This document shows positions 5,856-50,999 of a DNA stretch of 64,000 nt, one piece after another. The DNA lies in NCBI GenBank assembly GCA_021789555.1, contig JAJYJK010000004.1, forward strand, positions 47,064-111,063. The letters run 5' to 3'. How positions within the stretch are numbered: position 1 is the first letter of the stretch; the number at the start of each line of letters is the position of its first letter. The notes beneath the pieces were generated by a model. That model saw only the letters and a list, made by a program, of their open reading frames with translations, did no database searches and was not told where the DNA came from. This stretch comes from Nitrospirota bacterium. Its GTDB lineage: Bacteria > Nitrospirota > Thermodesulfovibrionia > Thermodesulfovibrionales > JdFR-88. A program made the translations under genes and the position numbers.

Positions 5856-5875
5856 TACCCGGAGGTTTCTATCCT

Positions 5876-7966: not shown

Positions 7967-7970
7967 AGTG

Positions 7971-8401: not shown

Positions 8402-8839
8402 ATTGCGTTTTCATCCAAAATTCCGATCCCTAAAGAACTACTCCAAGCCTGTCGCGACCTTCGCCGGAATTCAACTGATGCAGAAAATTTGCTTTGGAGA
8501 TTACTACGTGGCCGCCAATTGAACGGCGCAAAATTCCGCCGCCAACATCCCATCGGCCATTTCATTCTTGATTTTTATTGTGATGAACTTAAGTTAGCCA
8601 TTGAACTCGATGGCGGCGGGCATGCAGAAGAGAAGCAAAAATTATATGATGAGCAAAGGACAAGGGCGTTAGAAGGAGAAGGCATAAAAGTTCTGAGATT
8701 TTGGAATAATGATGTGCTCACTAGAACGGAGGCGATTTTAGAGACGATTTGGGACTCCCTCACCCCGGCCCTCTCCCAAAGGGCGAGGGGGAACGAACAC
8801 AAAGAGAAAAAGAATGCGGCAAAAGAACAAATCGGCTAA
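8393..8839 (+). CDS. DUF559 / Vsr-like PD-(D/E)XK endonuclease
   Basis: Motifs LRRNSTDAE..LW..LR, KFRRQHPIG.FILDFYC, LAIELDGGGH, VLRFWNNDV. Confidence 0.9.
   Translation: MREIAFSSKIPIPKELLQACRDLRRNSTDAENLLWRLLRGRQLNGAKFRRQHPIGHFILDFYCDELKLAIELDGGGHAEEKQKLYDEQRTRALEGEGIKVLRFWNNDVLTRTEAILETIWDSLTPALSQRARGNEHKEKKNAAKEQIG
8755..8790 (+). repeat. BoxC-like repeat, right arm of the inverted pair
   Basis: CTCCCTCACCCCGGCCCTCTCCCAAAGGGCGAGGGG, translated within the DUF559 C-terminus as SLTPALSQRARG. Confidence 0.9.
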
Positions 8840-10034: not shown

Positions 10035-10193
10035 TTGATATAATTGTTGGGCTTACACTTCCGCGTGTTATGGGACGAAACATACTAAAAGCGTTAGCGC
10101 CAGCTTACATCACAAGTTCTGGACGGACTGTTGAAAATACCGGCTCTCGTGGAAATGCTATGTTTCAAAGGGAATCTTCTCTTTTTTACTGGT

Positions 10194-10215
10194 GCTACGC
10201 CGCATGCGGCGTAGC
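10194..10215. repeat. Perfect 22-bp palindrome at the right side of the island
   Basis: GCTACGCCGCATGCGGCGTAGC. Confidence 0.85.
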
Positions 10216-10552
10216 TTGAGATCATGACGCATGTCACATGAACTATTTATATGGACAATGTCATGGTCCGGCGGATTATGATGGGAACCGGCAGGGCATA
10301 TCAAAAGCCGAAGCCGGAAAGGGGTTTTTTAGAGGTGTTCATTGAACGCCTTTGAACAGCCGGGCTAAAAAAATATTTTAAAAGCAAGGGGTTAAAATTT
10401 TCAGCTTGAACGGTAAATCACAAAAAAGGCCGGGCGCAAGATACTTGGGGGCATGGGGGCGCAGCCCCAAAATAATAAAAAGGCCATTCGGGCCTTAAGC
10501 CCGCGCGTGAAACTGGGGCGGGAAATCAGCTGCCTTATGTTAAAATGATTGG

Positions 10553-13381
10553 ATGTCAAAGGAAACCGACTATAAAGACACCCTAAACCTGCCCGCGACC
10601 GATTTCCCCATGAAGGCAAACCTGCCCCAACGGGAGCCTATGATGCTCAAGACGTGGCAGGAAGCGAAACTCTACGCGAAGATACTCGAAAAAAACCGGG
10701 ACGGGGAGAAATTCATCCTGCACGACGGCCCCCCGTACGCAAACGGCCATATACACATGGGCCACGCCCTCAATAAGGTGCTGAAGGACATAATCATCAA
10801 ATACAAGACGATGAAGGGGTTTAACTCTCCCTATGTGCCGGGCTGGGACTGCCACGGGCTGCCGATAGAGCTGCAGGTGGACAAAAACCTCGGGCAGGCC
10901 AAAAACCAGACCACGGTGCTCGAGAAACGCAGGCTCTGCCGGCAGTACGCGGCCGGCTTCGTCGATATCCAGCGCGAGGAGTTCGTGAGGCTTGGGGTTT
11001 TCGGTTTATGGGAAGCTCCATATCTGACGATGACGAACGACTACGAGGCGGACATCGTGGCGGAGTTCAACCTTTTTGCAAAATCAGGCTATCTCTACAA
11101 GGGGAAAAAGCCCGTCCACTGGTGCCCCTCATGCGTCACCGCGCTTGCCGACGCGGAGGTCGAGTATGCGGAGAAAAAATCCACTTCGGTATATGTGCGC
11201 TTCAGGCTCCTCGATGAGGACGCGGCAAAACTTGGGCTCACGGGGGCCGTCTACCTCGTCATCTGGACCACCACCCCCTGGACATTGCCCGCGAACCTGG
11301 CCCTGGCCGTAAACCCGGAGGTGGACTACGCCGCCTTCACCGCCAACGGGGAAACGCACATCCTCGCGGAAAACCTTTACGAGCCACTGAAAGAAATCCT
11401 CCATATAGCCGGCGAAAAAGTTCTGGAAATAAAGGGCATCGCCCTCAGGGGATTAAGGGCAAAACACCCGTTTATCGACAGGCTTTCCCGGGTGATAACC
11501 GGAAAATTCGTGACGACCGAGGAAGGCGCCGGCATTGTCCATATAGCCCCGGGCCACGGGGAGGACGACTACGCGGCCGGCATCGAAAACGGGCTTGAGA
11601 TTTACGCCCCGGTCGACGATTACGGGAAATTCAGAGGCACGGGAGTTGAGCGGATTGAGGGCGAATTCGTCTTCAAGGCAAACCCGAAAATAATAGAGAT
11701 GCTCCGGGAGAAGGGCGCGCTGCTGGCGGAAAAGGAGATAACCCACTCCTACCCGCACTGCTGGAGGTGCAAAAAGCCCGTCATCTTCAGGGCGACGGAA
11801 CAATGGTTTATCTCTATGGAATATTCCGGCCTGAGGGATAAATGCCTCGCGGAGATAGAAAAGGTGAAATGGGTGCCGGAATGGGGCAAAGGCAGGATAT
11901 ACGGCATGGTTGAGCGCAGGCCCGACTGGTGCATCTCCAGGCAGAGGGCCTGGGGGGTGCCGGTTGCGCTGCTTTCTTGCGCCGGCTGCGGCCGGACCGT
12001 TACCGAGCCGGCCGTCCTGGACAAGACCGAGGAGTTTTTCCGCCGCCTGGGCTCGGACGTATGGTTCGAGAAACCGGCCTCCGAATTCATCCCCGAGGGG
12101 TTCACCTGCCCCGGTTGTGGCGGAAGGGAATTCACGAAGGAGAAGGACATCCTCGACGTATGGTTCGACTCCGGCGTAAGCCATCATGCCGTTTTAGAGC
12201 GCAGGGCCGGGCTCGCCTTTCCCGCGGAGATGTACCTGGAAGGCTCCGACCAGCACAGGGGGTGGTTCCAGAGCTCGCTGATAACGGCAACGGCGCTCGC
12301 GGGGTCCGCCCCGTATAAGACAGTCCTCACCCACGGTTTCGTCGTGGACGGCAAGGGACACAAGATGTCAAAATCCCTGGGCAACGTCGTCGCCCCGGAA
12401 GACATCATAAAGAAACACGGCGCGGAGATACTCAGGCTGTGGGTATCGGCCGAGGACTATCGTGACGATATAAGGCTCTCCCCGGAAATCCTGGAGCGCC
12501 TGACCGAGGCGTACAGGAAGATAAGAAACACGGCCCGGTTTCTGCTTGGCAATACACATGATTTCAGCGGCGGGCACGATTTCGAGGGCGGCGACACGCA
12601 CCGGGGCTCGCTTCTGGAGATAGACCGCTGGGCGCTCTCCAGGCTCCAGGGGCTTATAGCCGGCGTGGAGCGGGCGTATGAGGATTTCGAGTTCCACGAG
12701 GTCTATCACAGGCTCTACAATTTCTGCGTGGTGGACATGAGCTCGTTTTATCTGGACATCCTCAAAGACAGGCTCTATACATTCAGGCGGGATTCGGAGC
12801 AGCGCAGGGCGGCGCAGTGGGTCCTGGGCCAAATCCTGCTTGCGATGGCGAAGCTCATGGCCCCTGTGCTGAGCTTCACCGCCGAGGAGATATGGGGTTA
12901 CATAAACCCGGCCGCCGGACGGGGAAAAGACGCGGAGAGCGTCTTTCTCTCCTCCTTTCCCGCCGTGGACGACAAACTCCTGGATGCCGCACTCGAAGAG
13001 AAATGGAGCAAGATCATCGCCGTAAGAAACGAGGTGAATAGGGCCCTCGAGATAAAAAGACAGCAGCGCATGATAGGCAATTCCCTTGAGGCGAGGGTTT
13101 TACTATACGCCCCGGATGATATATACGCGCTTCTGAAAGATCATGAAAATTTCCTGCCCGCCCTCTTCATAGTCTCGCAGGCGGAGATCAGGAAAATCTC
13201 CGGGGAAGAGCTTATGAGTGATATTCTCACTGAAGCGTTCCGGTCCGAAGAGATAAAGGGGCTGGTTGTTGATGTCCTCCGGGCCGAGGGCGAGAAATGC
13301 CCGAGGTGCTGGATGCGTGATACGAGCGTGGGCAAAAACCCGGAAGGCGTCTGCGACCGCTGCAGGGGCAACATATCGTGA
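10553..13381 (+). CDS. ileS: Isoleucine--tRNA ligase
   Basis: HDGPPYANGHIHMGH, GWDCHGLP, WTTTPW, EGSDQHRGWF, KMSKS and a C-terminal Zn finger. Confidence 0.98.
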   Translation: MSKETDYKDTLNLPATDFPMKANLPQREPMMLKTWQEAKLYAKILEKNRDGEKFILHDGPPYANGHIHMGHALNKVLKDIIIKYKTMKGFNSPYVPGWDCHGLPIELQVDKNLGQAKNQTTVLEKRRLCRQYAAGFVDIQREEFVRLGVFGLWEAPYLTMTNDYEADIVAEFNLFAKSGYLYKGKKPVHWCPSCVTALADAEVEYAEKKSTSVYVRFRLLDEDAAKLGLTGAVYLVIWTTTPWTLPANLALAVNPEVDYAAFTANGETHILAENLYEPLKEILHIAGEKVLEIKGIALRGLRAKHPFIDRLSRVITGKFVTTEEGAGIVHIAPGHGEDDYAAGIENGLEIYAPVDDYGKFRGTGVERIEGEFVFKANPKIIEMLREKGALLAEKEITHSYPHCWRCKKPVIFRATEQWFISMEYSGLRDKCLAEIEKVKWVPEWGKGRIYGMVERRPDWCISRQRAWGVPVALLSCAGCGRTVTEPAVLDKTEEFFRRLGSDVWFEKPASEFIPEGFTCPGCGGREFTKEKDILDVWFDSGVSHHAVLERRAGLAFPAEMYLEGSDQHRGWFQSSLITATALAGSAPYKTVLTHGFVVDGKGHKMSKSLGNVVAPEDIIKKHGAEILRLWVSAEDYRDDIRLSPEILERLTEAYRKIRNTARFLLGNTHDFSGGHDFEGGDTHRGSLLEIDRWALSRLQGLIAGVERAYEDFEFHEVYHRLYNFCVVDMSSFYLDILKDRLYTFRRDSEQRRAAQWVLGQILLAMAKLMAPVLSFTAEEIWGYINPAAGRGKDAESVFLSSFPAVDDKLLDAALEEKWSKIIAVRNEVNRALEIKRQQRMIGNSLEARVLLYAPDDIYALLKDHENFLPALFIVSQAEIRKISGEELMSDILTEAFRSEEIKGLVVDVLRAEGEKCPRCWMRDTSVGKNPEGVCDRCRGNIS

Positions 13382-13812
13382 TTGTCTCGGCGCTCGTCAT
13401 CATACTAGTCGTCATCGACCAGGCGACGAAGACCATCGCCCACGGGCTTGTAGGCCCTGATTGCGTGGACCGCATCCTGCCCTTTCTGAACATCGTGGAC
13501 CTCAGGAACCGGGGGTCCGCGTTCGGGATGCTCCAAAACGCGGGCAACGCCTTTTTCATCGCCATCACCGCGGCGGCCATCGTCGTAATCAGCTTCCTGC
13601 TGGCCAGGGGGCGGAGGAAACAGGCGGGGCTCATCCTCGTGCTTGCTGGTGCGGCCGGCAACCTCATGGACAGGCTCCTCTACGGATCGGTGCGGGATTT
13701 CATCGACGTCCACGCGGGCAGGTTCCACTGGCCCGCCTTCAATTTCGCGGACTCCTACATAAGCATAGGGATAGTGCTTTTATTCATAAGCTCCCTCAGA
13801 CAGGCCAGATAG
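13378..13812 (+). CDS. lspA: Lipoprotein signal peptidase II
   Basis: DQATK, NRGSAFG, GNLMDR, VRDFID, WPAFNFAD; GTGA overlap with ileS. Confidence 0.95.
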   Translation: MIVSALVIILVVIDQATKTIAHGLVGPDCVDRILPFLNIVDLRNRGSAFGMLQNAGNAFFIAITAAAIVVISFLLARGRRKQAGLILVLAGAAGNLMDRLLYGSVRDFIDVHAGRFHWPAFNFADSYISIGIVLLFISSLRQAR

Positions 13813-14129
13813 ACCAGGCCGGATAACCCGCGCGGTCACACGCGGTCCACTCCGCGTGCTTCATCAGGTTGGAGTCCACCGTCAAGGGCAAGACCAGTTT
13901 ACTTCCCTCCGCCGGCAGGTAGAATTCCGGCAGGAGCGTCTTTCTGCCGCCAAACCAAAAAATAAAAATCTCCCGGAAGACAAGGAAATGTAGACCGAAA
14001 GGTTCAAGGAAAGAGTTCGAGAAGACCCTCTTCCGTTACGTCCCCGCCCAAAAGCCTGCGAATCTTTATATTAAAGCTTCCGCTTGCGCGGCAATGACGG
14101 ATGGAGGCAAACAGCGAACGCTACACGGA

Positions 14130-14615
14130 CTATTTTTTAAACCCTTCCCGGAGGATGGCCACCTTGCCCGTGCGCACGAGGTCCTTTATCCCCATCGGCT
14201 TCATCAGGCCGATGAAGGCCTCTATCTTCTTCTCGTCCCCGGTTATCTCTATCGTATAGGTGCTCTCGGAGGAATCGACGACCCTGCCCCTGAATATCTC
14301 GGCCAGGTTCAGGACCTCGGCCTTCCGCTCGGGCCTCGGCGTGACCTTTATGAGGACCATCTCCCTTTCGACGTGCTCGAATTCGGTGACGTCCGTGACC
14401 TTGATGACGTCGACAAGCTTGTTTAACTGCTTGTTTATCTGCTCTATTATCAGGTCGTCTCCGCTTGTGACTATCGTCATCTGCGAGTACCGCGGGTCTA
14501 TCTCCTCCCCGACGGACAGGCTTTCGATATTGTACCCCCGGCCGCTAAATAGCCCGGATATCCTTGAGAGGACGCCGAACCTGTTTTCCACCAGAAGCGT
14601 TATCGTGTGTCTCAT
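14130..14615 (-). CDS. ilvN: Acetolactate synthase small subunit
   Basis: [29 protein letters not shown] domain; coupled to ilvB. Confidence 0.97.
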
Positions 14616-25240: not shown

Positions 25241-27244
25241 TTACCAGCGCCGGGTCAGGCTCGCAAAGAAGGCGTGCGCATGGCCGGACTGGTACTCCGG
25301 GTTCAGGCTGTTGACCGCGCTGTCAAAGTCGCTGTAGAAATAACTGAGCCCGAGCTCCGTCTTCTTGCGCACGGCCCATCTGGCCTTGAAGGAATAGACG
25401 GTCTCCTTTATGTCCAGCGTCGAAAAGACGGACAGGGGAAGCAGTGAGGGGCCGTTTGAAAAATCATACTGGCTTGACGGGGAGAAATCGCCGCTTGCCG
25501 AGAAACGGTTCACCGCCCCGGTCAGCTCAAGCTTATCGACCGGCGTGTAATTGGCCGAGACCGTGTAGTTATGCGAGATGTCGGTGTAGGGCACATTCGG
25601 GTCCAGGAACTGCGCGCCCGCGGGGCCCGTGTAAACCAGGTCCTGCCTCACCTTTGAGCGCCAGTATGCGTAGCCCGCATCCAATGTAATATTCCGCCTG
25701 ATTGGAAATACGATATCGCCCGAGAATTTGTCCCTCCGCACGTCCCTGTTTGCGGCATTCGTGATGCCGGAGGTGGTCTCGTCTATTATCAGCACGTTGT
25801 CCCTTGTCTCGTGGGAAAGCTCGTAGCTTGCGAAGGCCGTGATCCCCCCCGGGAAGCTCCATGTGGCGGACAGGGTGCCGGCATCGCCGTTATTTGGCTG
25901 GTAATTGTACGCCGGGGAGCCGTACCATTCGTGGGTGTACTGCCCCCTAAGTTTCAGCATGCGGACAGGGCGGTAGTCCACATTGAACGAAGTCCTGGTG
26001 CTCCTGGTGGACGCGGGTAAAAGCCCGTCTTCCCAGAAGGTGGAATTTTCGCGCCTTTCGTTGTTCCAGGAGATCTGGCTGCCTACCGACAGATTGTATG
26101 TGATCCTGTAGCGGGCCACACCGGTTACGGTGTCCGTCACCGAGGAGATCGGCGGCCGGATGGAGTTGATCAGCGCGGGTGGCGGGAGATTGAACTGGCT
26201 GTAAAGCTGGTTCAGGGTCGAGCTGATATTCTCCTCGGAAAGCTCCTCGTGTTTGTACCTTGCCACCAGCATAAGCGGCGTCACCGGTATGACCCTTATC
26301 TCGCCGTCGCCGAAGAAATAATCGGCGCGGGCGCCTGAGGTATCGTTCGTCCTTGATATCTTCGACAGCGTTCCCATGGCGTATATCATGCCCGTGTATG
26401 AGCTGTGTATCCTGAATGTGTCCGTGTTGCCCTCCAGTTCGGGTATCAGGTTGTGGAACCAGGAGACGCCACTGTCATTGGTGTAGCTCATGACCTCATT
26501 GCCGGCGGAAAACCTCTTGAACCCGTGCGAATAATCCATCTCCACGGGGCCCAGATGACCGTTCAGGCCCACCCTTATATCGGTCGTGCGCATGTCCACG
26601 GGCCTGTCCTGGGAGACCCTCACGATATCGCTGAATGAACCCGAGCCGCCAAGGAATATCTGCTGCATGTCTCCCGACTGAACCACGTTCATGCCCTGCA
26701 GATATATATGGAAGGGATAGTCGTGGGTTTTGAAACGCAGAGAGACGCGGTTGATTCCCATCCTTACGCCGTATTGGACCCCGGTATCGGACTGATCCAA
26801 ATCCGAGCCATTTCTGGACGGGTTGCCTGCAAGCGTAATGTTGGGCAGGTTATGGAAGAGGCTGCTGCCCAAAAACCTGAAAAGGACGGTATCGCTGTAA
26901 GCGTAGCGGAAATCGGCAAAGTAGTCTTTTTTATTGAGGACGTCAAGCTCCAGGTGGACCCGGTTCGGGAACGGGAAGGCGATGATCTCGCCGCCCAGGC
27001 CGAGGGAATCGCTCGCGTAGCCGTATGGCAGCGCATTGCTGCCGCCGTTTAAGTGGGCGTCAGTAAAACCTCCCCACAGGCTGTACTCGGGGGCTATCTC
27101 CGGGTACTTGTAAACCTGGTTGTCCGCCTCGTCCTGCGCGAAGGCCGCGGAGGCGAGCATGAACAGGAGCACCGGAAGAAAAAGGACGGCGCATATACCT
27201 CTTTCCGTTTCAGCCCGCGTCCGCCACCTCACCGGGTGAACCAT
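25241..27244 (-). CDS. Outer-membrane beta-barrel protein, MtrB/PioB-like porin
   Basis: Signal peptide ending ASAAFA-QD, alternating amphipathic strands, terminal aromatic residue (FFASLTRRW); overlaps the upstream decahaem cytochrome gene. Confidence 0.75.
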   Translation of the reverse strand: MVHPVRWRTRAETERGICAVLFLPVLLFMLASAAFAQDEADNQVYKYPEIAPEYSLWGGFTDAHLNGGSNALPYGYASDSLGLGGEIIAFPFPNRVHLELDVLNKKDYFADFRYAYSDTVLFRFLGSSLFHNLPNITLAGNPSRNGSDLDQSDTGVQYGVRMGINRVSLRFKTHDYPFHIYLQGMNVVQSGDMQQIFLGGSGSFSDIVRVSQDRPVDMRTTDIRVGLNGHLGPVEMDYSHGFKRFSAGNEVMSYTNDSGVSWFHNLIPELEGNTDTFRIHSSYTGMIYAMGTLSKISRTNDTSGARADYFFGDGEIRVIPVTPLMLVARYKHEELSEENISSTLNQLYSQFNLPPPALINSIRPPISSVTDTVTGVARYRITYNLSVGSQISWNNERRENSTFWEDGLLPASTRSTRTSFNVDYRPVRMLKLRGQYTHEWYGSPAYNYQPNNGDAGTLSATWSFPGGITAFASYELSHETRDNVLIIDETTSGITNAANRDVRRDKFSGDIVFPIRRNITLDAGYAYWRSKVRQDLVYTGPAGAQFLDPNVPYTDISHNYTVSANYTPVDKLELTGAVNRFSASGDFSPSSQYDFSNGPSLLPLSVFSTLDIKETVYSFKARWAVRKKTELGLSYFYSDFDSAVNSLNPEYQSGHAHAFFASLTRRW

Positions 27245-28377
27245 CCTTTACCGGAAGTGGGCGGCAGGTCGGAGCCGTGGATTTGCGAATGGCAGTCGGT
27301 GCACCTCGTATAAGTGGCCCGGGTGTTGAGGGCGTTTATCAGATGCCCTTCATGGCACTGGAGACAGAGGAAGGGCTGTCTCAGTTTCAAGAGGTCATCG
27401 TTTGGCGAGCCGTGCTGGTTGTGGCAGACAAGGCAGTTTTCCGTATTTTCCGCGTGCTCGTAAATGAAAGGGCCCTCCTTGTCGGCGTGGCACTGGGTGC
27501 AGGTGGCCTTGATGGTGGGCTTCCGCAAAAGCTTCGGGTTCCCCCCGTGAGGGTCGTGGCAGTCGGTGCAGAATATCTTGCCCTCGGGAACCGGATGATG
27601 GCTTATCTGGTTGAATTCGCTCTTTATGTCCTGATGGCACCTGAAACACATCGACGCCGTGTCCCTGGGGTTTACGATGAGGTCCGGCCCGTGGTGGATA
27701 TTGTGGCAGTCCTCGCAGTCCACGCCGTTTAAGGCGTGGGGGCTCGTGTTCCAGGCGTGAAGGTTGAAAGTGGCGTTTCCGGTATGGCATTTAAGGCATA
27801 TGAGGGATTTCGCGGTCGGCGGCAGGCCCTTTATGTCGATGAACGTCTTATAGTCGCAGGAGAGGGTCTTTCCCTCCTTCCGCGCCTCTTTCACCTTCCG
27901 CCGCGTAAGCCCCATTATGGCCAGGCTGCCAGGCCCGTGGCAGGACTCGCAGTCCACAATCGGAAGACCGGATTTGGGCGAAAGCTGGGCGCCCATCGTG
28001 CTTGCCTCAAAATCCCTCTTTATCTGGTCATGGTAATGGCAGGACCTCAGACAATTGGCATTGCCCACGTAATCGGCATCGAACCTGCCCGCAAGCATCT
28101 TTTCATATTCTTTTATGGGTATTAAGGGTTTTGAGGTCTTCAGGGTCTCGCAGCCCGCAGGCAGGAACAAGGCCGTCAAAATCAAAAAGGCAAGGAGCGG
28201 CAGATACCTCGAAAAGGCCGGCGAGAAGGCATTGTCCGTTTTTTTGAAGACAACACGCCCGCTCTCCGTCGAGAGATTCCATCCGGATGGATTTTCACTT
28301 TCAACAGAGGGAGTTTTTTTATTTTTTATTATTATTCGCCCGGTTGCCCCTTTTGAGGCAATACGCCTGCTCTGCAT
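27229..28377 (-). CDS. Decahaem c-type cytochrome lipoprotein (DmsE/MtrA-like)
   Basis: Nine CXXCH (CESCH, CLKCH, CEDCH, CFRCH, CTDCH, CTQCH, CLVCH, CLQCH, CTDCH) plus CLRSCH; GPF.YEH and PFLCLQCH motifs; lipobox-like LPAGC. Confidence 0.88.
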   Translation of the reverse strand: MQSRRIASKGATGRIIIKNKKTPSVESENPSGWNLSTESGRVVFKKTDNAFSPAFSRYLPLLAFLILTALFLPAGCETLKTSKPLIPIKEYEKMLAGRFDADYVGNANCLRSCHYHDQIKRDFEASTMGAQLSPKSGLPIVDCESCHGPGSLAIMGLTRRKVKEARKEGKTLSCDYKTFIDIKGLPPTAKSLICLKCHTGNATFNLHAWNTSPHALNGVDCEDCHNIHHGPDLIVNPRDTASMCFRCHQDIKSEFNQISHHPVPEGKIFCTDCHDPHGGNPKLLRKPTIKATCTQCHADKEGPFIYEHAENTENCLVCHNQHGSPNDDLLKLRQPFLCLQCHEGHLINALNTRATYTRCTDCHSQIHGSDLPPTSGKGWFTR

Positions 28378-28410
28378 TCAGCCCCCAACATCATAAAAAA
28401 ACCGTGTGAA

Positions 28411-28440
28411 ACTATATATTTTAGGTCCTCAAAAAGTCAA
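28411..28440 (-). promoter_or_regulatory. Putative sigma70 promoter of the cytochrome-porin operon
   Basis: TTGACT-N18-TATAGT on the minus strand, 33 bp upstream of ATG 28377. Confidence 0.5.
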
Positions 28441-28532
28441 GCTCTGACGGGCGTATTGTCAAGGCAAAATAGAAATTTCCTGCTTTGGGCGGGCTCAGGC
28501 ACCCGGCGGTTGCGCGGCAGAACGCTGTCGAA

Positions 28533-29681
28533 CTAGGGGGCGGTTTTTTTTATGGCGTCCTCAATAAACCGGGCGGGGGAGCCGCCTGAAAAATGGATCC
28601 GGACAATTTCAGAGCCGATCTCCTTTGTCTGCCTGTACGTCTCGTCAACGGCCCTTTCCACCACGGCCCAGCCCTCGCGTGGGCCGTCCGTCCCTTTTTC
28701 AAGGAAAAGGCCGGCGGCCTTCTCTATCTTCACGGAGAGGAGTTTTCTGTAGCCGGCCAGAAAGGCGGCATAGAATGCTAGTGAGCCCGTTTTCTTTCCG
28801 TCCATGATGTAGCGGAGCATCCCTTCCGGGCAGGTGTCGGCGAGCACGTCTTTCAAGGCCCTGAGGTACATGGCGTGTTTGGCCTCCCGCGTCTCCATGA
28901 GCATCTCCGACCATGCCGGGCCGAGTCTTTTCCGCTCGGCCGCCTCTCCAAGCTCGTGCCTTATGTACGTCCTTAGTTCCTCCCTCGAAACGGCAGAAAG
29001 CATATCTGTCATTTCCGGCCCCGCCTCCGGGGCGGCCCCTGCCCGTTGCGCAATACCGGGGGCGACGCCGTAATACGAGAATGCCGCCCGCAGAAGGCCC
29101 GAGGGTTTTGCCCTGTATTCCTCGAATTTCTGCCATATCAGATTTTCATTGGCCTCCAGGCGGGCAAAGACGCAGTCCCCCGCGAGCATGGCGACCGCGG
29201 CCGAAAGGTCCCTTGCGTATTCCCTGCCGCAGGTGTAAATTTCGAGGCCGTCCTCTGTCTCGCTCCCGATGACGTCGGCAAGAAAGAAGGTGGCCCGAAG
29301 ATGGGGCCCGTAGCCCGCCGCGTAAACGAGCCCGCGGTCAATCAGCACCCGGTTTATGCCGGCCGAATCAAACGCGTCAAAGCGCGCGGCCTCCTCCGGG
29401 TTGTCCGCCTTCACCCCCCCCGTCTCTACCTTCAACCCCTTTATCTCGACCGGCCCGAACGGCCGACCGTCAATCTCGCCCCAAAGGGCCTCCCTTTCGC
29501 CGATCCACCCGGCAATCCGCGCATTTTCCACCTTCTGCCACGGCCGCAGGCCGTGCTCTGAGTAGTAAAGCTCCCGGAGCCTCATCAAGAGCCCGCAGAC
29601 GGAATAAAGCCCCCAGCTCCTGGCGTCCGCTATATCACAATTGCTCTTGACGCTGCTTACAAGCAGGTCATCCGGCTCCAT
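28533..29681 (-). CDS. Conserved hypothetical protein (Sfum_1244-like family, from memory)
   Basis: N-terminal NCDIADAR..GLYSVCGLLMRLRELY; CGREYARD; HELGE motif. Confidence 0.6.
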   Translation of the reverse strand: MEPDDLLVSSVKSNCDIADARSWGLYSVCGLLMRLRELYYSEHGLRPWQKVENARIAGWIGEREALWGEIDGRPFGPVEIKGLKVETGGVKADNPEEAARFDAFDSAGINRVLIDRGLVYAAGYGPHLRATFFLADVIGSETEDGLEIYTCGREYARDLSAAVAMLAGDCVFARLEANENLIWQKFEEYRAKPSGLLRAAFSYYGVAPGIAQRAGAAPEAGPEMTDMLSAVSREELRTYIRHELGEAAERKRLGPAWSEMLMETREAKHAMYLRALKDVLADTCPEGMLRYIMDGKKTGSLAFYAAFLAGYRKLLSVKIEKAAGLFLEKGTDGPREGWAVVERAVDETYRQTKEIGSEIVRIHFSGGSPARFIEDAIKKTAP

Positions 29682-45919: not shown

Positions 45920-46196
45920 TCTGCGCCGGTCTGCCCAAAAACCTCTGCGTGATGGTCTCGGCCTGAAGGGCGGAAAGTATCACATGGTCGCTGTCGGTTA
46001 TCAGGATGGACCGTGTGCGCCTGCCCTCGGTTGCGTCAACGAGCTTGCCCCTCTCGCGCGCCTCTTCCCTCAGGCGTTTCATCGGGGCGGACCCCGGGGT
46101 CAGTATGGCCACCACCTTCGCCCCCGCCACCATGTTGCCGAAACCTATATTGACGAGGACCGGGGCCAGATCGTCTTTTTTAGCCGGCATACTCAT
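45912..46196 (-). CDS. DUF370 (RemA-like) protein
   Basis: [34 protein letters not shown]. Confidence 0.9.
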
Positions 46197-47038
46197 TGAA
46201 GGTTCTGGACCTGCTGCCGGATCCTCTCCACCTCGGTCTTGAACTCGATCACCCTGGCGGTTATCTCCATATCAGTTGTCTTTGAGCCGATAGTGTTGGC
46301 TTCCCTGTGAAGCTCCTGCAGCAGGAAATCAAGCTCTCTGCCTATTTTATCATTACTTGCGATGATTTTTTCCATCTGCCCGAGATGGCCCGTGATCCTC
46401 GTGAGCTCCTCCGCGATGTCGGCCTTCTCGGCCAGAATTGCGGACTCCTGCATCAGCCGCCCCTCGTCCCACCCGGTCTCCTGGAGCATCGATTTTATCT
46501 TCGAGGCGAACCTTTCCTTGAGGCCCGAAAGGGTCACGGGCAAGAGCTCTTTCATCCGGCCGTTTATGCGTTCGAGCGCGCCCAGGCGCGAGGTTACGTC
46601 TTCGGCTATCATCCGGCCCTCTTTTATCCTCATCGCCTCGACCTGGGAAATCGCATCTTCGAACGCCTCCGTGAATGAGACGATATCGCAGCTCGTCTCC
46701 TCCGAGATAAAGAGGTCCTTCATGAGGGCGAGTTCCCGGATGCCGGCCGGCCCGGCGATGGAGAGCTCACGCCTGAGCCCCTCCAGGGCCTCGTACACCT
46801 GCCCGGCCTTCGAGACGTCGAGACTAAATCCCTGCTTGCCGGATTTTACGGTCACGAAGACATCGAATCTGCCCCTGGCGAACCTGCCCCTTATGATGTT
46901 TCTGAGAGGGACTTCCTGCTCCATGAGGCCCGGGGGGAGCCGTAAATTCATTTCGAGAAACCTGCTGTTTAAAGAACGCACCTCAACCCTGAAATCGCCT
47001 TTTTCGGAAGAGCCGAAACCCGTCATTCCCTGTAGCAT
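46193..47038 (-). CDS. yicC: YicC/YloC family endoribonuclease
   Basis: [35 protein letters not shown]. Confidence 0.93.
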
Positions 47039-47156
47039 AGTTATGATATTAAATCAGGAGCCGGCTTTAGTCAAAGAAAAAGCGGGAAAAGGGGGGGAAG
47101 AAAAAGGAGGGAAAGAGTTGCCAAGGCCCGTGAAAACAATTAGAATTTAATCTGTA

Positions 47157-47173
47157 ACGGCATTGCGTCTGCG
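47157..47173 (+). promoter_or_regulatory. Putative sigma54 (-24/-12) promoter of the OmcS-like genes
   Basis: CGGCATTGCGTCTGCG: GG(47159-60)-N10-GC(47171-72), preceded by an AT-rich stretch. Confidence 0.5.
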
Positions 47174-47289
47174 AAGCAACTCCAAAGGCAAAGCACGGCA
47201 AAACCCCAAAAACCCGGCAGTAAAGTGAAACCTCTGACGCGCGGGCCGCGCCACGCAGACCGCGCTCCAGGGGCCTTTGAGGCGGCCGC

Positions 47290-48606
47290 ATGAAGATTGC
47301 CCGCAAAACGATAGCCGGCCTGCTGCCGGCCCTTTCCCTCTGCCTCGCGGTGGCCGTCCGGCTCGCGGCGGGGCCGGACGTCGCCCTCGCCTTCCATAAC
47401 GGGGGCACCGGGGACTGTGGCGACTGTCACACCACGCACAGGGCCGGGGCCATTGCCGAAAATGCCGCAACGGCGCAAGGCGTTTATATGTTGAAGGGGT
47501 CTGACGCGAGTTCGACATGCCTGAACTGCCATCAGGCGGCCGGCCTGGCGGGGCCGACCGGCCAGTATGTAAGCACCCCGGAGTCCGAGATGCCGGCCGG
47601 CGTCCCTCCAAAACAGATGACGCCCGGCGGAGATTTCGGCTGGCTCAAAAAAAATTACACCTGGAAGGCGCCCGGCTCCGGCATGCGGGCAAGCCCTGGA
47701 TACATGCACGGCCACAGCATAGTCGCAGTCGATTACGGCTACAGCGCGGACCCGGTAATCACGAGGGCCCCCGGCGGCGCGTATCCCGCCTCGGCCCTTT
47801 CATGCACCAGTTGCCATGACCCGCACGGGACCTACCGGAGGATCATAAACGGCGCGATTGCCTCCTCGGGGGCGAAGATCTGCAATTCCGGCTCATACGA
47901 CACAAGCCCAGACCCCACTGCGGACTGCCCTGTCGGGGTCTACAGGCTCCTCGGGGGCATCGGATACCAGCCCGCAAGCCTTAACGGTTACTCGTTTACC
48001 GCCGACCCTCCGGCCGCCGTCGCTCCATCGGTCTACAACAGGTCCGAGGAAACGACCGAGACCCGTGTCGCCTACGGCTCCGGGATGTCCGAATGGTGCG
48101 AAAACTGCCATTCCATAAATCCCGGCAACGGCCGGCACAGCCACCCGGCCGGCAGTCCGGCCAAGCTGGGGACCCTGGCCAAATACTACAATATGTACGT
48201 AAAGAGCGGGGATGTTACCGGCACCAGCGCCTCCTCCTATTCATCGCTTGTACCCTTCGAGGAGGGCACATCCGACTACAGGACCCTTCGGTCCCACGCC
48301 AAAAACGACGACTCCTACCTGCGGGGGCCGGACGCAAACTCCAACGTCATGTGCCTTACCTGCCACCGGGCGCACGCATCGGGCTGGGATTTCGGCCTGC
48401 GGTTCAACACGTACGACCAGGACTTCATTACAACGGAGGCCCAGACGGGCGCCCCCCTCTGGCCGGGCACCGACACGACCCGCAACGCGCAATGGTCCAT
48501 GGGGCGGACATCCGAGGAGACCAGAAGGGCCTACTACAATATCCCCGCAAGGAGGCTCTCGCCATACCAGAGGACGCTCTGCAACAAATGCCACATCCGG
48601 GACTAA
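47290..48606 (+). CDS. OmcS-like hexahaem c-type cytochrome, copy 1
   Basis: Signal peptide ending ALA-FHNGG; six CXXCH; colinear OmcS motifs QMTPGGDFGW, GH.IVA.DY, APGG.YP, CHDPHG.YRR, RVAYG.GMSEWC.NCH, PFEEGT.DY, CHRAHASG, YQR.LCNKCH..D. Confidence 0.92.
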   Translation: MKIARKTIAGLLPALSLCLAVAVRLAAGPDVALAFHNGGTGDCGDCHTTHRAGAIAENAATAQGVYMLKGSDASSTCLNCHQAAGLAGPTGQYVSTPESEMPAGVPPKQMTPGGDFGWLKKNYTWKAPGSGMRASPGYMHGHSIVAVDYGYSADPVITRAPGGAYPASALSCTSCHDPHGTYRRIINGAIASSGAKICNSGSYDTSPDPTADCPVGVYRLLGGIGYQPASLNGYSFTADPPAAVAPSVYNRSEETTETRVAYGSGMSEWCENCHSINPGNGRHSHPAGSPAKLGTLAKYYNMYVKSGDVTGTSASSYSSLVPFEEGTSDYRTLRSHAKNDDSYLRGPDANSNVMCLTCHRAHASGWDFGLRFNTYDQDFITTEAQTGAPLWPGTDTTRNAQWSMGRTSEETRRAYYNIPARRLSPYQRTLCNKCHIRD

Positions 48607-48683
48607 CGCAGCCCCCGGAATTTGAGGTCTTTTGCCAATTACATCTTTACATTTTCAAATGCTGCATTTTAAAATATAGCCGC

Positions 48684-50096
48684 ATGAAAGAGACAGTGGT
48701 TGCCTTGGCCCTTATGGCGATGGTCATCGCCGGTATTGACGGTAAGGGGTGGGCGTTCCACGACGGCGGCGTCGGCGCATGCGACGGATGCCACACGATG
48801 CACAACTCCATCGGCGGCCAGCCGGTGCAGCTCAAAAACGGGGCCGTACCCTCCGCCACCGTGGGCCAGGCGTCCAACGCATACCTGATGAAGGGCACGG
48901 ACCCCAGCTCCACCTGCCTTAATTGCCACCAGGAGACGGGAAACGCGGCCGCCACCGGCCAGTTCATAAGCACCTCCCCGGCGGACATGCCCGCCGGCTA
49001 TCCGCCCATAGAGCTCACCCCCGGAGGGGATTTCGGATGGCTCCAAAAAACATATACATGGGTGTACAGCGGCACGCAGTACACCGACCCGGGCCAAAAC
49101 CACGGGCATAACATCGTCGCGGCCGATTTCAATTACGTGAAGGACTCCACAATCATAACGGCCCCGGGCGGCACATATCCCGCCTCCGCCCTCTCCTGCA
49201 TAAGCTGCCACGACCCCCACGGAAAATACAGGAGAAACTCTGGCGGAAGCATCACAAAGGGCGGGAGCCCCATAATCGGGTCCGGCTCCTACAATACAAG
49301 CCCGACCCCCGCGGCGGGCCAGGCAGTAGGCGTTTACAGGCTCCTGGGAGGCGTTGGATACCAGCCGGGTTATCTGCTGGGCAGTTATGCCTTTAGCTAC
49401 GCCCCGCCGCCCGCCGTCGCCCCATCGGTCTATAACCAGTCGGAGAGCACCTATCCGGTCCGCGTGGCCTACGGCAGCGACGGCTCCAGCAACGGGATGT
49501 CCTTCTGGTGCAGAAACTGCCATCCGAATATACACACCTCCAGCGGCCCGTCGGCGCCCTTGAACGTCTATAATCAAACGTACAGTTTCCCGCAAACCCA
49601 CCCGATTGAGAGCTATTTGAGCATGGGAACAAACAACAATTACAACGCGTATATAGAATCGGGGGTCTACACGGGCACTCAGAGCACATCCTACTGGTCC
49701 ATCGTGCCCTATGAGGAAAACAACTTGAATTACTCGACCCTTGCATCCCACGCAAACAATAACGGCAGCTATCTTACGGGACCGTCAAGCAGCGACTACG
49801 TCTCCTGCATGACCTGCCACAGGGCGCACGCCACGGGATGGGACTACATGCTCCGCTTCAACTATTTGGGCATACCGGACGGCAACCACGGCTGGACCCA
49901 GATCATAGACGACAACAGCGGCGGAGCGGTTTGGCCGGACCCGGTCCTCGACCCTTATAAGGCCATGGGACGCACCACAACGGAAACGCAGCAGGCCTAT
50001 TACGGCAGACCGGCAACCACCTACGCGGCCGTCCAGTACGTCCTGTGCAATAAATGCCATTACGCCGGCATGATGGGCGGGGGCAGCGGCCGGTAA
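48684..50096 (+). CDS. OmcS-like hexahaem c-type cytochrome, copy 2
   Basis: Start at MKETVVALAL; mature FHDGGVGACDGCHTMHNS; six CXXCH; same OmcS motifs, with insertions. Confidence 0.9.
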   Translation: MKETVVALALMAMVIAGIDGKGWAFHDGGVGACDGCHTMHNSIGGQPVQLKNGAVPSATVGQASNAYLMKGTDPSSTCLNCHQETGNAAATGQFISTSPADMPAGYPPIELTPGGDFGWLQKTYTWVYSGTQYTDPGQNHGHNIVAADFNYVKDSTIITAPGGTYPASALSCISCHDPHGKYRRNSGGSITKGGSPIIGSGSYNTSPTPAAGQAVGVYRLLGGVGYQPGYLLGSYAFSYAPPPAVAPSVYNQSESTYPVRVAYGSDGSSNGMSFWCRNCHPNIHTSSGPSAPLNVYNQTYSFPQTHPIESYLSMGTNNNYNAYIESGVYTGTQSTSYWSIVPYEENNLNYSTLASHANNNGSYLTGPSSSDYVSCMTCHRAHATGWDYMLRFNYLGIPDGNHGWTQIIDDNSGGAVWPDPVLDPYKAMGRTTTETQQAYYGRPATTYAAVQYVLCNKCHYAGMMGGGSGR

Positions 50097-50791
50097 CTCC
50101 TCAGCAGGTCCAGGTTTTCCCTTGCGGTTTTTTCCAAAGCCGGGCCGGAAATATCCTTCAGATACGGGAAAATGCCTATTAGCGGGACCCCCGACAGCTC
50201 CCTTATCACCTCGGGGTTTGTGGGCCATGAAGGGTCCTGATCTCCGTCCGCAGGGCCCAGGCGGTTTATTACCACCCCGGCCACCTGGACGCCGGCGTCA
50301 AGCGCGCACCTCACCGTAAGGAGCGTGTGGTTTATCGTCCCCAGGCCGGGCCTCGCCACAACGACGAGCGGAAGCCCCAGTTCCCCCGCCAGATCAAGGA
50401 CGTAAAAATCCCGCCTGATGGGCACAAGCAGGCCGCCTACCCCCTCGACAACGACCGCGTTGTATCTTTTTGCCAGCCCGCCGAAAATCTTTTTTATCCG
50501 CTCGGGCTCGATCCGGACCCCTTCCCTCTCCGCTGCGACCATCGGGGCAAGCGGGGCCTCCAGGGCGTATGGGGTCACAACAGAGATGTCTTCTTCCATC
50601 CCCGCCATCGTCCTCAGAAGAGCCCCGTCCGCGGGCACGAGGACATCGCCCTTCCTCATGCAGCCCGACTCAATTGGCTTCATCGCGCAGACGGAAAGCC
50701 CGGCCCCTTTTAAAAGGCGCACAAGCGCGGCCGAGATGACCGTCTTTCCGACGCCGGTGTCCGTCCCCGTCACAAAAAAACCCTTCGCCAT
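50060..50791 (-). CDS. bioD: Dethiobiotin synthase
   Basis: FVTGTDTGVGKT, MKPIESG, VEGVGG, LGTINHTLL. Confidence 0.95.
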   Translation of the reverse strand: MAKGFFVTGTDTGVGKTVISAALVRLLKGAGLSVCAMKPIESGCMRKGDVLVPADGALLRTMAGMEEDISVVTPYALEAPLAPMVAAEREGVRIEPERIKKIFGGLAKRYNAVVVEGVGGLLVPIRRDFYVLDLAGELGLPLVVVARPGLGTINHTLLTVRCALDAGVQVAGVVINRLGPADGDQDPSWPTNPEVIRELSGVPLIGIFPYLKDISGPALEKTARENLDLLRSYRPLPPPIMPA

Positions 50792-50801
50792 TTTTTCAGA
50801 T

Positions 50802-50999
50802 CCCCTCACCCTCCGCTTCGCTCCTCCCTCTCCCATTGGGAGAGGGTTATGGAACTCCTGCCTTTTGTGAAATCCCCTCCCTGAACAGGGAGGAGATCAG
50901 GGGAGGGTGCAACAGCTTTTCGACCAGCTGGTTTGGCCGTTCGCGGGGGTTTGGGGGAGCATCCCCCAAAAAGATAAAAAGGGCGGGTGGGCGGGTTCC
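50802..50999. repeat. Two BoxC-like copies in inverted orientation plus one family A copy
   Basis: CCCCTCACCC...CCCTCTCCCATTGGGAGAGGG (50802-50846); CCCCTCCCTG...AGGGAGG...GGGGAGGGTG (50875-50909); family A at 50944-50999 (-). Confidence 0.7.

What the first reader, a model, noticed from the sequence alone, without database searches (positions are those of the whole stretch)
47157..50096. Tandem OmcS-type nanowire cytochromes in an apparently non-Geobacter, Wood-Ljungdahl genome
Seen: two secreted paralogues, each with exactly six CXXCH, a mature N-terminus FHxGG and six extra conserved His (FH, CHTxH, GHxIV, CHDPH, xHP, CHRAH). Established: this matches my recollection of G. sulfurreducens OmcS motif by motif; OmcS polymerises into conductive filaments, with the second His of CHTMH ligating a haem of the next subunit. 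That His is kept in both copies (CHTTH, CHTMH). Inference: the host, whose housekeeping genes look Nitrospirota-like, may build OmcS-type (possibly heteromeric) nanowires. The pair sits on the opposite strand between yicC and bioD with no dedicated chaperone or secretion genes next to it.
Basis: partly seen in the sequence, partly recalled or inferred. Interest (0 to 1): 0.85.

Follow-up and report, generated by a model that had tools for sequence, protein, structure and literature searches.

The report
Tandem OmcS-family cytochromes in a Nitrospirota genome
Two neighbouring genes encode close relatives of the Geobacter nanowire protein OmcS in a sulfate-reducer-like Nitrospirota genome that also carries the nanowire assembly genes elsewhere, so it is a good but not unprecedented candidate for cytochrome nanowires outside Geobacter.

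Summary
Gene A (47290-48606, 438 aa) and gene B (48684-50096, 470 aa) each have six CXXCH motifs. They match OmcS (PDB 6EF8) over its full length (E 5.8e-137 and 3.2e-116). All 12 axial His are kept, including the His16 equivalent. AlphaFold2 models hit only 6EF8 (TM 0.83/0.89 and 0.75/0.86).

The host is Nitrospirota-like, not Geobacterales. IleS on the same contig is closest to Nitrospiraceae and Thermodesulfovibrionales MAG proteins. The genome has CdhC, DsrA and ResB.

New here:
- The genome has eight OmcS-like matches.
- On another contig it has a complete osc-like assembly cluster, colinear with Geomonas and Geobacter.
- The A+B pair is a 3 kb indel between yicC and bioD, and that site is empty in a genome of the same genus.
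- A and B are old paralogues outside the strict Geobacter OmcS clade.

Novelty is limited. OmcS-family genes occur in 39 of 401 sampled genomes of the phylum. They have been reported in Nitrospirae and Thermodesulfovibrionia MAGs (PMC9948709, PMC8478452). Polymerisation is inferred, not shown.

Verdict: a new member of a known kind, of moderate interest.

The parts
47118..47146 (+). promoter-like site (TTGCCA-17-TAGAAT) 144 nt upstream of gene A
   Evidence: Consensus scan, 10 of 12 matches. Both hexamers are recognisable in the otherwise diverged upstream region of the same-genus genome G002. This is a consensus match only; function is not shown.
47290..47391 (+). predicted Sec signal peptide of A (residues 1-34, ending ALA|FH)
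   Evidence: Residue 1 (Phe) of the mature OmcS chain 6EF8_A aligns to A residue 35. The segment is hydrophobic with an AxA motif (read from the sequence). No SignalP-type tool was run.
47290..48606 (+). gene A: OmcS-family hexahaem c-type cytochrome, 438 aa (404 aa mature)
   Evidence: Six CXXCH. phmmer E 5.8e-137 to 6EF8 over residues 35-438 against 1-407. 55.8% identity to Geobacter OmcS P0023. All 12 ligand His present. AlphaFold2 pLDDT 80; Foldseek 6ef8_A E 5.4e-47, TM 0.83/0.89. dN/dS 0.24 against the G002 orthologue.
48646..48675 (+). promoter-like site (TTTACA-18-TAAAAT) ending 9 nt before B's ATG
   Evidence: Consensus scan, 10 of 12 matches. Both hexamers and the stretch up to the ATG are conserved in G002, while the 5' part of the A-B spacer is not. 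Function is not shown.
48684..48755 (+). predicted Sec signal peptide of B (residues 1-24, ending GWA|FH)
   Evidence: Residue 1 of the mature OmcS chain aligns to B residue 25. The G002 orthologue starts at the equivalent ATG.
48684..50096 (+). gene B: OmcS-family hexahaem c-type cytochrome, 470 aa (446 aa mature), with insertions and an 11-residue C-terminal tail
   Evidence: Six CXXCH. phmmer E 3.2e-116 to 6EF8. 51.9% identity to OmcS and 53.7% to A. All 12 ligand His present. AlphaFold2 pLDDT 73.5; 6ef8_A E 8.4e-40, TM 0.75/0.86. dN/dS 0.20. The tail after the last CXXCH is 11-13 residues in all 4 members of the B clade, against 3 in A and OmcS.
47081..50129 (.). about 3.05 kb insertion/deletion segment carrying A and B between yicC and bioD
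   Evidence: In G001 (same genus), G004 and G006, bioD lies directly next to yicC. G000 and G002 carry A+B there. G003 carries other genes plus one A-like gene. The G001 flanks align to window 46968-47080 and 50130-50208, with about 107 bp between them in G001. Contigs from a run of another study bridge both junctions.
46193..47038 (-). left flank: yicC (YicC/YloC family endoribonuclease)
   Evidence: TIGR00255, E 5.9e-59, above cut-off.
50060..50836 (-). right flank: bioD (dethiobiotin synthase); its 3' end overlaps the 3' end of B by about 37 nt (convergent genes)
   Evidence: TIGR00347, E 3.3e-52, above cut-off. Coordinates.

Best explanation
A and B are two anciently diverged members of the OmcS family: Sec-exported hexahaem c-type cytochromes with six bis-His haems.

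Proposed mechanism, with each step marked:
- Haem attachment by the genome's System II (ResB/CcsA) machinery (inferred).
- Cleavage of the signal peptide to expose an N-terminal Phe-His (inferred from alignment to the mature OmcS chain).
- Export across the outer membrane and head-to-tail polymerisation (inferred, not shown). The His of CH-x-x-H (A H50, B H40, equivalent to OmcS His16) would ligate haem 5 of the next subunit, giving a continuous haem chain.
- Assembly would be helped in trans by the osc-like cluster on contig C74/C4. That cluster encodes a beta-propeller, a 776-aa probable outer-membrane protein, a lipoprotein, a SurA-like PPIase, and 26-haem and 16-haem cytochromes.

The likely role is extracellular electron transfer to (or from) iron minerals. 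The host is an anaerobic Nitrospirota bacterium carrying dsrAB and Wood-Ljungdahl genes, and it occurs in mine-drainage, sediment and tailings metagenomes.

Family membership is shown. Filament formation, homopolymer versus heteropolymer, and the direction of electron flow are inferred.
For: Family and fold:
- Full-length phmmer matches to 6EF8.
- The only Foldseek hit with E <= 0.001 is 6ef8_A for both models: 1 of 12 matches for A and 1 of 10 for B.

Haem ligands:
- The six CXXCH His and the equivalents of OmcS His110, 147, 257 and 335 are kept in 118 of 118 family rows.
- His2 is kept in 111 of 118; the other 7 are gaps from my trimming.
- His16 is kept in 104 of 118. It is present in A, B and the other four full-length own paralogues. 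Because 14 rows lack it, its retention is informative.
- Passages of Filman 2019 (PMC6584659) state that 11 axial His come from the same subunit and one, on haem 5, comes from the neighbour.

Assembly genes:
- Seven consecutive Geomonas limicola genes downstream of its omcS-like pair match own contig C74 3446-14353 in the same order. Identities are 31-57% and E-values run from 8e-48 to 0.
- Pfam gives YNCE propeller, GNA1162/LpoB-like lipoprotein, SurA_N plus Rotamase_2, and 26 and 16 CXXCH.
- This agrees with the description in PMC13194489 (passages) of OscH as folding, OscE/F/G as secretion, and OscI/J as cytochromes.

Co-occurrence:
- The OscE-like protein was found in 31 of 401 sampled genomes of the phylum. 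All 31 are among the 39 with an OmcS-family match, and none are among the other 362.
- Among 41 relatives the figures are 8 and 10.

Constraint and supporting genes:
- dN/dS is 0.24 for A and 0.20 for B.
- ResB is present, CcmE was not found, and a single-domain cytochrome c7 is present.
- Contigs from three other laid runs cover the pair.
Against: - No experiment or structure shows that A or B polymerises.
- In both trees, A (7-row clade, support 99) and B (4-row clade, support 100) lie outside the clade containing Geobacter OmcS. OmcS is the only family member with a solved filament.
- The pair is not next to the osc cluster. In this genus the osc-proximal genes are a different, divergent paralogue type (39.5-45.6% identity to A, B or OmcS).
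- All four B-clade members carry an 11-13-residue tail after the last CXXCH. In OmcS this end holds haem 6, which lies near the subunit interface (PMC6584659), so B's interface may differ.
- No RNA data were available.
- That His16 is the cross-subunit ligand is recalled from Wang et al. 2019, which I could not read.
Confidence: 0.55

Rival explanations
1. A and B are OmcS-family cytochromes that do not form filaments. They would act as monomeric or small-oligomer outer-surface or periplasmic electron carriers, as may be the case for Geobacter paralogues for which no filament has been shown. Any nanowire in this organism would be built from the paralogues that sit beside the osc cluster on C4/C74.
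For: - A and B lie outside the Geobacter OmcS clade.
- They are detached from the osc cluster, which has its own five OmcS-like matches (C4 x3, C74 x2).
- The pair is dispensable: the site is empty in a genome of the same genus (82% complete), which also has no OmcS-like match at all.
- PMC13194489 (passages) lists omcT, oscC and omcJ as OmcS-like paralogues without assigning filaments to them.
Against: - A and B keep the His16 equivalent, which 14 of 118 family members have lost.
- Among the own paralogues, A is the closest to OmcS (55.8% against 43.7-45.6% for the osc-proximal ones).
- In other genomes of the phylum, the osc-proximal gene is of the A/OmcS-like type (49-57% identity to A) in 7 of the 12 genomes fetched; the other five genes range from 37.8 to 52.4%, and for G212 and G111 I did not check osc adjacency.
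Confidence: 0.3
2. A and B co-polymerise into a heteromeric (for example alternating) OmcS-type filament.
For: - The genes are adjacent and on the same strand, and this arrangement is kept in G002.
- Both retain all 12 ligand His.
Against: - OmcS nanowires are described as homopolymers (PMC12307469, passage), although omcS and omcT are in one operon in Geobacter (PMC13194489).
- A and B are only 53.7% identical.
- Each has its own conserved promoter-like site.
- In G003 the A-like and B-like genes lie on different contigs: the A-like one at the yicC-bioD site, the B-like one near the osc cluster.
- B has clade-specific insertions and a C-terminal tail.
Confidence: 0.07
3. The pair is an assembly or binning artefact: a Geobacterales fragment wrongly joined to a Nitrospirota contig.
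For: None found. This was considered only because the closest characterised relative is from Geobacter.
Against: - The pair lies inside a 117.8 kb contig, between housekeeping genes whose order is conserved in six related genomes.
- G002 has the same pair at the same site.
- GC content is 0.60 across 46001-50000, like its surroundings.
- Contigs of run X5 (another study) bridge yicC-A (2200 nt, 15 differences) and A-B-bioD (3030 nt).
- The nearest homologues are in Nitrospirae-titled MAGs, not Geobacter.
Confidence: 0.01

Closest known systems
OmcS of Geobacter sulfurreducens (GSU2504; filament structures PDB 6EF8 / 6NEF)
   Same: - Six CXXCH in the same order.
- All 12 axial His, including the His16 equivalent.
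- The mature chain begins Phe-His.
- Full-length alignment and the same predicted fold.
- Little regular secondary structure.
   Different: - Identity is 55.8% for A and 51.9% for B.
- Both lie in tree clades separate from the one holding Geobacter OmcS.
- A has an extra Cys pair (C198/C213), shared only with its closest relatives in alignment A1.
- B has insertions after haem motifs 4 and 5 and an 11-residue C-terminal tail.
- The host phylum is different.
- Polymerisation is unproven.
omcS-omcT-osc operon of G. sulfurreducens (Shen et al. 2025, Cell Chem Biol; known to me only through passages in PMC13194489 and in the bioRxiv preprint 10.1101/2025.10.22.684050)
   Same: - Tandem OmcS-like genes.
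- The genome carries colinear homologues of seven osc-type genes, including a SurA-like PPIase and two very large multihaem cytochromes.
- OscE-like and OmcS-like genes co-occur strictly in the genomes sampled.
   Different: - Here the A+B pair is on another contig from the osc-like cluster, inserted into a housekeeping locus.
- The osc-like cluster is flanked instead by five divergent OmcS-like matches.
- My Osc letter names are assigned from gene order and the GSU numbers. They do not come from the original paper.
omcS genes reported in Nitrospirae / Thermodesulfovibrionia metagenome-assembled genomes (PMC9948709, PMC8478452)
   Same: Same phylum. Mine-drainage sediment or subsurface settings. 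omcS-type genes taken as markers of iron reduction (passages).
   Different: Those reports are annotation-level hits (KEGG number or FeGenie). In the passages I saw there was no analysis of ligand His, paralogues, osc genes or genomic context. Their supplementary tables were not available to me.
OmcE and OmcZ cytochrome filaments
   Same: Extracellular polymerised multihaem cytochromes. OmcE also uses a His from the neighbouring subunit (PMC9473688, passage).
   Different: The folds and haem counts are unrelated. Neither model matched them: 6ef8_A was the only Foldseek hit with E <= 0.001.

Membership tests
OmcS family (hexahaem nanowire-type cytochromes) | Six CXXCH haem-binding motifs in conserved order and spacing | tested here: met
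   Exactly six in A and six in B. They align column for column with OmcS.
OmcS family (hexahaem nanowire-type cytochromes) | Full-length sequence homology to OmcS | tested here: met
   phmmer E 5.8e-137 (A residues 35-438 against chain 1-407) and 3.2e-116 (B residues 25-460 against 1-405). Pfam and NCBIfam have no dedicated OmcS model; only Paired_CXXCH_1 passes its cut-off.
OmcS family (hexahaem nanowire-type cytochromes) | All six haems bis-His: six distal His in addition to the six CXXCH His | tested here: met
   The equivalents of OmcS His2, 16, 110, 147, 257 and 335 are His in both A and B. They are invariant in alignments A1, A2 and A3. Actual ligation is inferred from the alignment.
OmcS family (hexahaem nanowire-type cytochromes) | OmcS fold | tested here: met
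   AlphaFold2 models against 6ef8_A: TM 0.83/0.89 for A and 0.75/0.86 for B; no other hit with E <= 0.001. These are predicted structures, modelled without haems.
OmcS family (hexahaem nanowire-type cytochromes) | Cross-subunit His (OmcS His16) available for haem 5 of the next subunit | tested here: met
   A H50 and B H40. This position is His in 104 of 118 family rows and missing in 14. That this particular His is the cross-subunit ligand is recalled from memory. PMC6584659 confirms only that one His, on haem 5, comes from the neighbouring subunit.
OmcS family (hexahaem nanowire-type cytochromes) | Head-to-tail polymerisation into filaments | not testable with these tools
   This needs cryo-EM or biochemistry, or multimer modelling with haems.
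Strict orthologue of G. sulfurreducens OmcS | Groups with Geobacter OmcS to the exclusion of other paralogue clades | tested here: not met
   OmcS P0023 groups with the first Geomonas gene, a Geobacteraceae MAG gene and one genome of this phylum (G197), with support 95-98. A and B are in other clades. The trees are unrooted, and Geobacter OmcT, OscC and OmcJ were not available to label clades.
osc (OmcS companion) assembly system | Colinear set of companion genes (propeller, large secreted protein, lipoprotein, PPIase, two large multihaem cytochromes) in the same genome | tested here: met
   Own C74 3386-14356 is colinear with Geomonas limicola L021 11257-21263 and Geobacter sp. AOG1 L058 12527-21392. 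The cluster is on another contig, not adjacent to A and B.
osc (OmcS companion) assembly system | Physical linkage of the subunit gene to the osc genes | tested here: not met
   A and B are on C49, while the osc-like genes are on C74 and C4. In G002 the equivalents are also on different contigs, C39 and C17.

The most novel reading that the evidence does not exclude
In this Nitrospirota genus, one osc-type export machine may serve a repertoire of up to eight OmcS-family subunits. These would include a detachable two-gene 'nanowire cassette' (A+B) that comes and goes at a housekeeping locus between close relatives. A and B, each with its own promoter-like site, would build two different filaments (or a mixed one) assembled in trans. 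A sulfate-reducing, Wood-Ljungdahl organism could then switch wire types with conditions.
Probability: 0.15. Interest if true: 0.65.

Novelty: new member of a known kind. Interest (0 to 1): 0.4.

Why it matters
OmcS-type filaments have been solved only from Geobacter sulfurreducens. The PDB copy searched holds one OmcS sequence, in two entries.

This genome offers a concrete test case outside Geobacterales. It has subunit candidates with every haem ligand intact, a complete companion cluster, System II maturation, a small periplasmic c7 cytochrome, and an iron-rich habitat.

If A or B forms wires, long-range extracellular electron transfer would extend to dsr-carrying, acetyl-CoA-pathway Nitrospirota of mine-drainage sediments. 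That would bear on iron, sulfur and mercury cycling there.

The presence/absence polymorphism within one genus gives a natural comparison. The subfamily lacking His16 gives a sequence marker that may separate polymerising from non-polymerising members.

The finding does not change the current picture. The family and its machinery are already described as widespread.

Tried and rejected
- **Complex prediction.** Complex prediction with two copies of mature A returned 'no answer' (score 0.00, controls not run). It counts neither for nor against binding.
- **Sequencing runs.** No RNA holder was listed, so nothing can be said about expression.
- **Empty-site allele in metagenomes.** No laid contig joined yicC directly to bioD. 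Contigs drop rare variants, so this shows nothing.
- **Mobile-element signs.** blastn of the G001 empty site against the window gave only the two flank matches plus short chance-level hits. I found no direct repeats and drew no conclusion on mechanism.
- **Recent tandem duplication: rejected.** A and B are 53.7% identical. Separate A-like and B-like genes exist in G003 on different contigs. Whether the A and B clades are sisters is unresolved in both trees, and I did not run an AU test.
- **Orthology of B or A to Geobacter OmcT.** This could not be tested because no OmcT sequence was available. The second Geomonas gene is only 45.5% identical to the first, so I do not call it OmcT.
- **Atlas search with the OscE-like protein.** The nearest clusters are unnamed Thermodesulfobacteriota proteins, and one is automatically named a PEP-CTERM-associated outer-membrane protein. 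This is a lead only.
- **Papers not held.** Shen et al. 2025 and Wang et al. 2019 are not held. What I say of them comes from citing papers or from recall. Supplementary tables of PMC9948709 and PMC8478452, which may list the very MAGs concerned, are closed.
- **Literature searches.** I ran 'OmcS' with 'Nitrospirota', 'Thermodesulfovibrionia' and 'Nitrospirae', and 'OmcS-companion' (0 papers). In the listings, and in the OmcS passages of the seven listed papers I opened, I saw no study of OmcS-type filaments in this phylum.


Full report
**What is there.** The + strand carries two genes between the - strand genes yicC (46193-47038) and bioD (50060-50836). Gene A is 47290-48606 (438 aa). Gene B is 48684-50096 (470 aa). 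B's real start lies inside a longer open frame that begins at 48093. Each protein has exactly six CXXCH motifs.

phmmer against all PDB chain sequences returns OmcS (6EF8/6NEF) as the only significant hit. E is 5.8e-137 for A (residues 35-438 against chain 1-407) and 3.2e-116 for B. Residue 1 of the mature chain (Phe) aligns to A F35 and B F25, directly after hydrophobic leaders ending ALA and GWA. Pfam and NCBIfam have no OmcS model; they give only the generic doubled-CXXCH domain.

AlphaFold2 models have pLDDT 80.0 and 73.5. Each matches 6ef8_A and nothing else at E <= 0.001 (TM 0.83/0.89 and 0.75/0.86). Only the left coordinate, 47157, marks no feature.

**Haem ligands.** I built an alignment of 118 full-length family members. 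They came from 135 hmmsearch hits on ORFs of the fetched loci. I removed four duplicate loci and any row shorter than 340 aa or with fewer than six CXXCH, then added Geobacter OmcS P0023.
- The six CXXCH His and the equivalents of OmcS His110, 147, 257 and 335 are His in 118 of 118 rows.
- His2 is His in 111 of 118; the other seven are gaps from my N-terminal trimming.
- His16 is His in 104 of 118.

A, B and the four other full-length paralogues of this genome have all twelve. Fourteen rows lack His16. They include genes from Geomonas diazotrophica, Geomobilimonas luticola and Geobacter sp. AOG1, so keeping it is not automatic. Filman et al. (PMC6584659, passages) state that 11 axial His come from the same subunit and one, on haem 5, from the neighbour. 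That this one is His16 is my recollection of Wang et al. 2019, which is not held.

**Host.**
- IleS, on the same contig (window 10553-13381), has as its best named relatives MAG proteins labelled Nitrospiraceae (85, 80 and 72% identity), then Thermodesulfovibrionales and Nitrospirota at 62-65%.
- The nearest OmcS homologues are also in Nitrospirae-titled MAGs.
- Another OmcS-like locus of this genome is 82-86% identical in DNA, over about 4 kb, to a locus titled 'Nitrospirae bacterium'.
- The genome is 2.85 Mb in 108 contigs, 98.8% complete. CdhC lies about 3.5 kb left of the window, and a pterin-binding/CdhD-like gene is at the window's first bases.
- It also has dsrA with a dsrB-like neighbour and ResB, while CcmE was not found. 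It has 29 ORFs with four or more CXXCH and a single-domain cytochrome c7.

The 'non-Geobacter, Wood-Ljungdahl' reading is therefore supported.

**Assembly genes exist, but elsewhere.** The genome has eight OmcS-like matches: C49 x2 (A and B), C104, C74 x2 and C4 x3.

On C74, one OmcS-like gene is followed by these genes:
- a YNCE-type beta-propeller (3386-4804);
- a 776-aa protein with no Pfam family (4816-7146);
- a GNA1162/LpoB-like lipoprotein (7273-7851);
- a 407-aa protein with no family (7820-9043);
- a SurA-like PPIase (9131-10975);
- a 26-CXXCH cytochrome (10980-12989);
- a 16-CXXCH cytochrome (12956-14356);
- an NHL-repeat protein.

These are colinear with the seven genes downstream of the omcS-like pair in Geomonas limicola, and with the equivalent genes in Geobacter sp. 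AOG1. Identity is 31-57% and E-values run from 8e-48 to 0. An NHL protein on C4 matches the gene that lies next to the omcS-like genes in those genomes.

PMC13194489 (passages) describes the osc operon after Shen et al. 2025: OscH for folding, OscE/F/G for secretion, OscD for morphology, and OscI/J among the cytochromes. By gene order the C74 genes correspond to OscD through OscJ. This lettering is my inference. In the same-genus genome G002, the five OmcS-like genes and the OscE-like gene lie on one contig, so C4 and C74 are probably one locus.

**Distribution.**
- Among 41 genomes (own plus 40 relatives), 10 have an OmcS-like match at E <= 1e-10. Eight have the OscE-like protein, and all eight are among the ten.
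- In a sample of 401 genomes of the phylum (G000 included), 39 have an OmcS-family match at E <= 1e-40. The matches are concentrated in a few families: f25 26 of 64, f23 3 of 12, f6 3 of 35, and none in f29 (0 of 75).
- In what appears to be the same sample (identical family denominators), 31 have the OscE-like protein. All 31 are among the 39, and none are among the other 362. Related genomes are not independent, so this is description, not a test.
- A scan of species genomes found relatives in Geobacterales, Desulfobulbaceae, Acidobacteriota, Rokuibacteriota, Schekmanbacteria, Anaeromyxobacteraceae and others. Of 600 pattern matches, 197 were confirmed and the best 80 kept.
- The protein database holds 4386 proteins at E <= 1e-10 among the 8000 candidates scored.

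**Phylogeny.** I built a FastTree of the 118 rows and an IQ-TREE 'quick' tree of 59 rows that I chose.
- In both, A sits in a 7-row clade (support 99) confined to this bacterial family and Nitrospirae-titled MAGs. That clade also holds the C104 paralogue and the G003 gene at the same yicC-bioD site.
- B sits in a separate 4-row clade (support 100).
- Geobacter OmcS groups with the first Geomonas gene, a Geobacteraceae MAG gene and, one genome of this phylum (G197).
- The osc-proximal paralogues of this genome belong to a distant clade.

A and B are 53.7% identical. A is 55.8% identical to OmcS and B 51.9%. They are therefore old paralogues, and strict orthology to the proven filament former is not shown. 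In the 12 other genomes of the phylum that I fetched, the osc-proximal gene is A/OmcS-like (49-57% identity to A) in seven (G313, G096, G238, G169, G273, G145, G197). The other five genes range from 37.8 to 52.4% identity to A, and for G212 and G111 I did not check adjacency to osc genes.

**Genomic context and history.** The order coaBC-rpoZ-gmk-remA-yicC | bioD-fabG is conserved in the related genomes.
- In G001 (same genus, 82% complete, no OmcS-like match), G004 and G006, bioD abuts yicC.
- G000 and G002 have A+B at that point.
- G003 has an SQR-like oxidoreductase, a DUF1641 protein and one A-like gene there.

The indel spans window 47081-50129, against about 107 bp in G001. dN/dS between G000 and G002 is 0.24 for A and 0.20 for B, compared with 0.15 for yicC.

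Promoter-like sites occur before A (47118-47146) and 9 nt before B's ATG (48646-48675). Their hexamers are conserved in G002.

The stretch is held by runs labelled mine drainage, sediment and mine tailings metagenomes, from five studies, one of which may be the source. Contigs of run X5 bridge yicC-A and A-B-bioD. Run X9 covers A and parts of B at about 99% identity. This excludes a chimeric contig.

**Literature.**
- omcS (with omcF) was reported in five Nitrospirae MAGs from acid mine drainage sediments (PMC9948709, passages).
- OmcS genes were reported in Thermodesulfovibrionia of a deep mine (PMC8478452, passages).
- Portela et al. 2024 describe OmcS homologues in diverse bacteria without mentioning Nitrospirota (0 occurrences).
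- The title of Shen et al. 2025 calls the machinery 'widespread and ancient' (reference lists).
- In the listings, and in the OmcS passages of the seven listed papers I opened, I saw no study of OmcS-type filaments in this phylum.

**Verdict.** A and B are genuine OmcS-family cytochromes in a Nitrospirota host that also has the companion machinery. Filament formation is plausible (about 0.55 for the full mechanism) but unproven. The main rival is that they are non-polymerising paralogues (0.3). The kind is known, and its presence in this phylum is already in print at annotation level. What is new is the detailed case: the detached indel cassette, the paralogue expansion, and the osc cluster in trans. 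I score interest at 0.4.

Noticed in passing
window 25241-29681 (- strand): A 9-CXXCH cytochrome (27229-28377) is followed by a 666-aa secreted-looking protein with no Pfam family (25241-27244) and preceded by a DUF6866 protein (28533-29681). This may be a porin-cytochrome conduit.
   Followed up: partly
window 8001-10000: GC falls to 0.434, against 0.54-0.62 elsewhere. The dip covers ORFs 8393-8839 and 8814-10034 and may be foreign DNA.
   Followed up: no
window 48646-48683: The conserved promoter-like TTTACA-18-TAAAAT ends only 9 nt before B's ATG, and no clear Shine-Dalgarno is seen. B may be made from a very short-leader or leaderless transcript.
   Followed up: partly
L100 (G003:C24) 1746-6038, and the matching sites in L112, L113, L115: The yicC-bioD junction is a variable spot in this bacterial family. 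It is empty in three genomes, holds A+B in two, and holds an SQR-like gene, a DUF1641 gene and one A-like gene in one.
   Followed up: yes
loci L027, L030, L031, L032, L035, L036, L038 (425-1666), L039, L046, L063, L067, L069, L072, L105: Fourteen of 118 OmcS-family proteins lack the His16 equivalent (CH followed by TPP, GPN, APS and the like). In the 118-row tree 13 of the 14 fall in one 19-row clade of support 98. They may be a non-polymerising subfamily.
   Followed up: partly
window 47879-47928 (A residues 198 and 213): A and its closest relatives in alignment A1 (P0002, P0008) share an extra Cys pair that other rows lack. It is probably a clade-specific disulfide.
   Followed up: no
own genome C74 1-19110 and C4 1-11628 (L091, L092): An osc-like cluster with five further OmcS-like matches is split over two short contigs. 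One copy is cut by the end of C4, and one on C74 (340-1083) has only 3 CXXCH. The assembly probably broke on the paralogue repeats. In G002 the equivalent region is one contig.
   Followed up: partly
G117:C2, G226:C3, G260:C12 (rows): Some OmcS-like matches in other genomes of the phylum contain in-frame TGA or TAG stops. They may be pseudogenes or sequencing errors.
   Followed up: no
own genome C21:4766-6994, C68:4977-6452, C7:38408-38602, C49:43118-43585: The host has dsrA with a dsrB-like neighbour, ResB (System II cytochrome maturation; CcmE not found), a single-domain cytochrome c7 and CdhC.
   Followed up: partly
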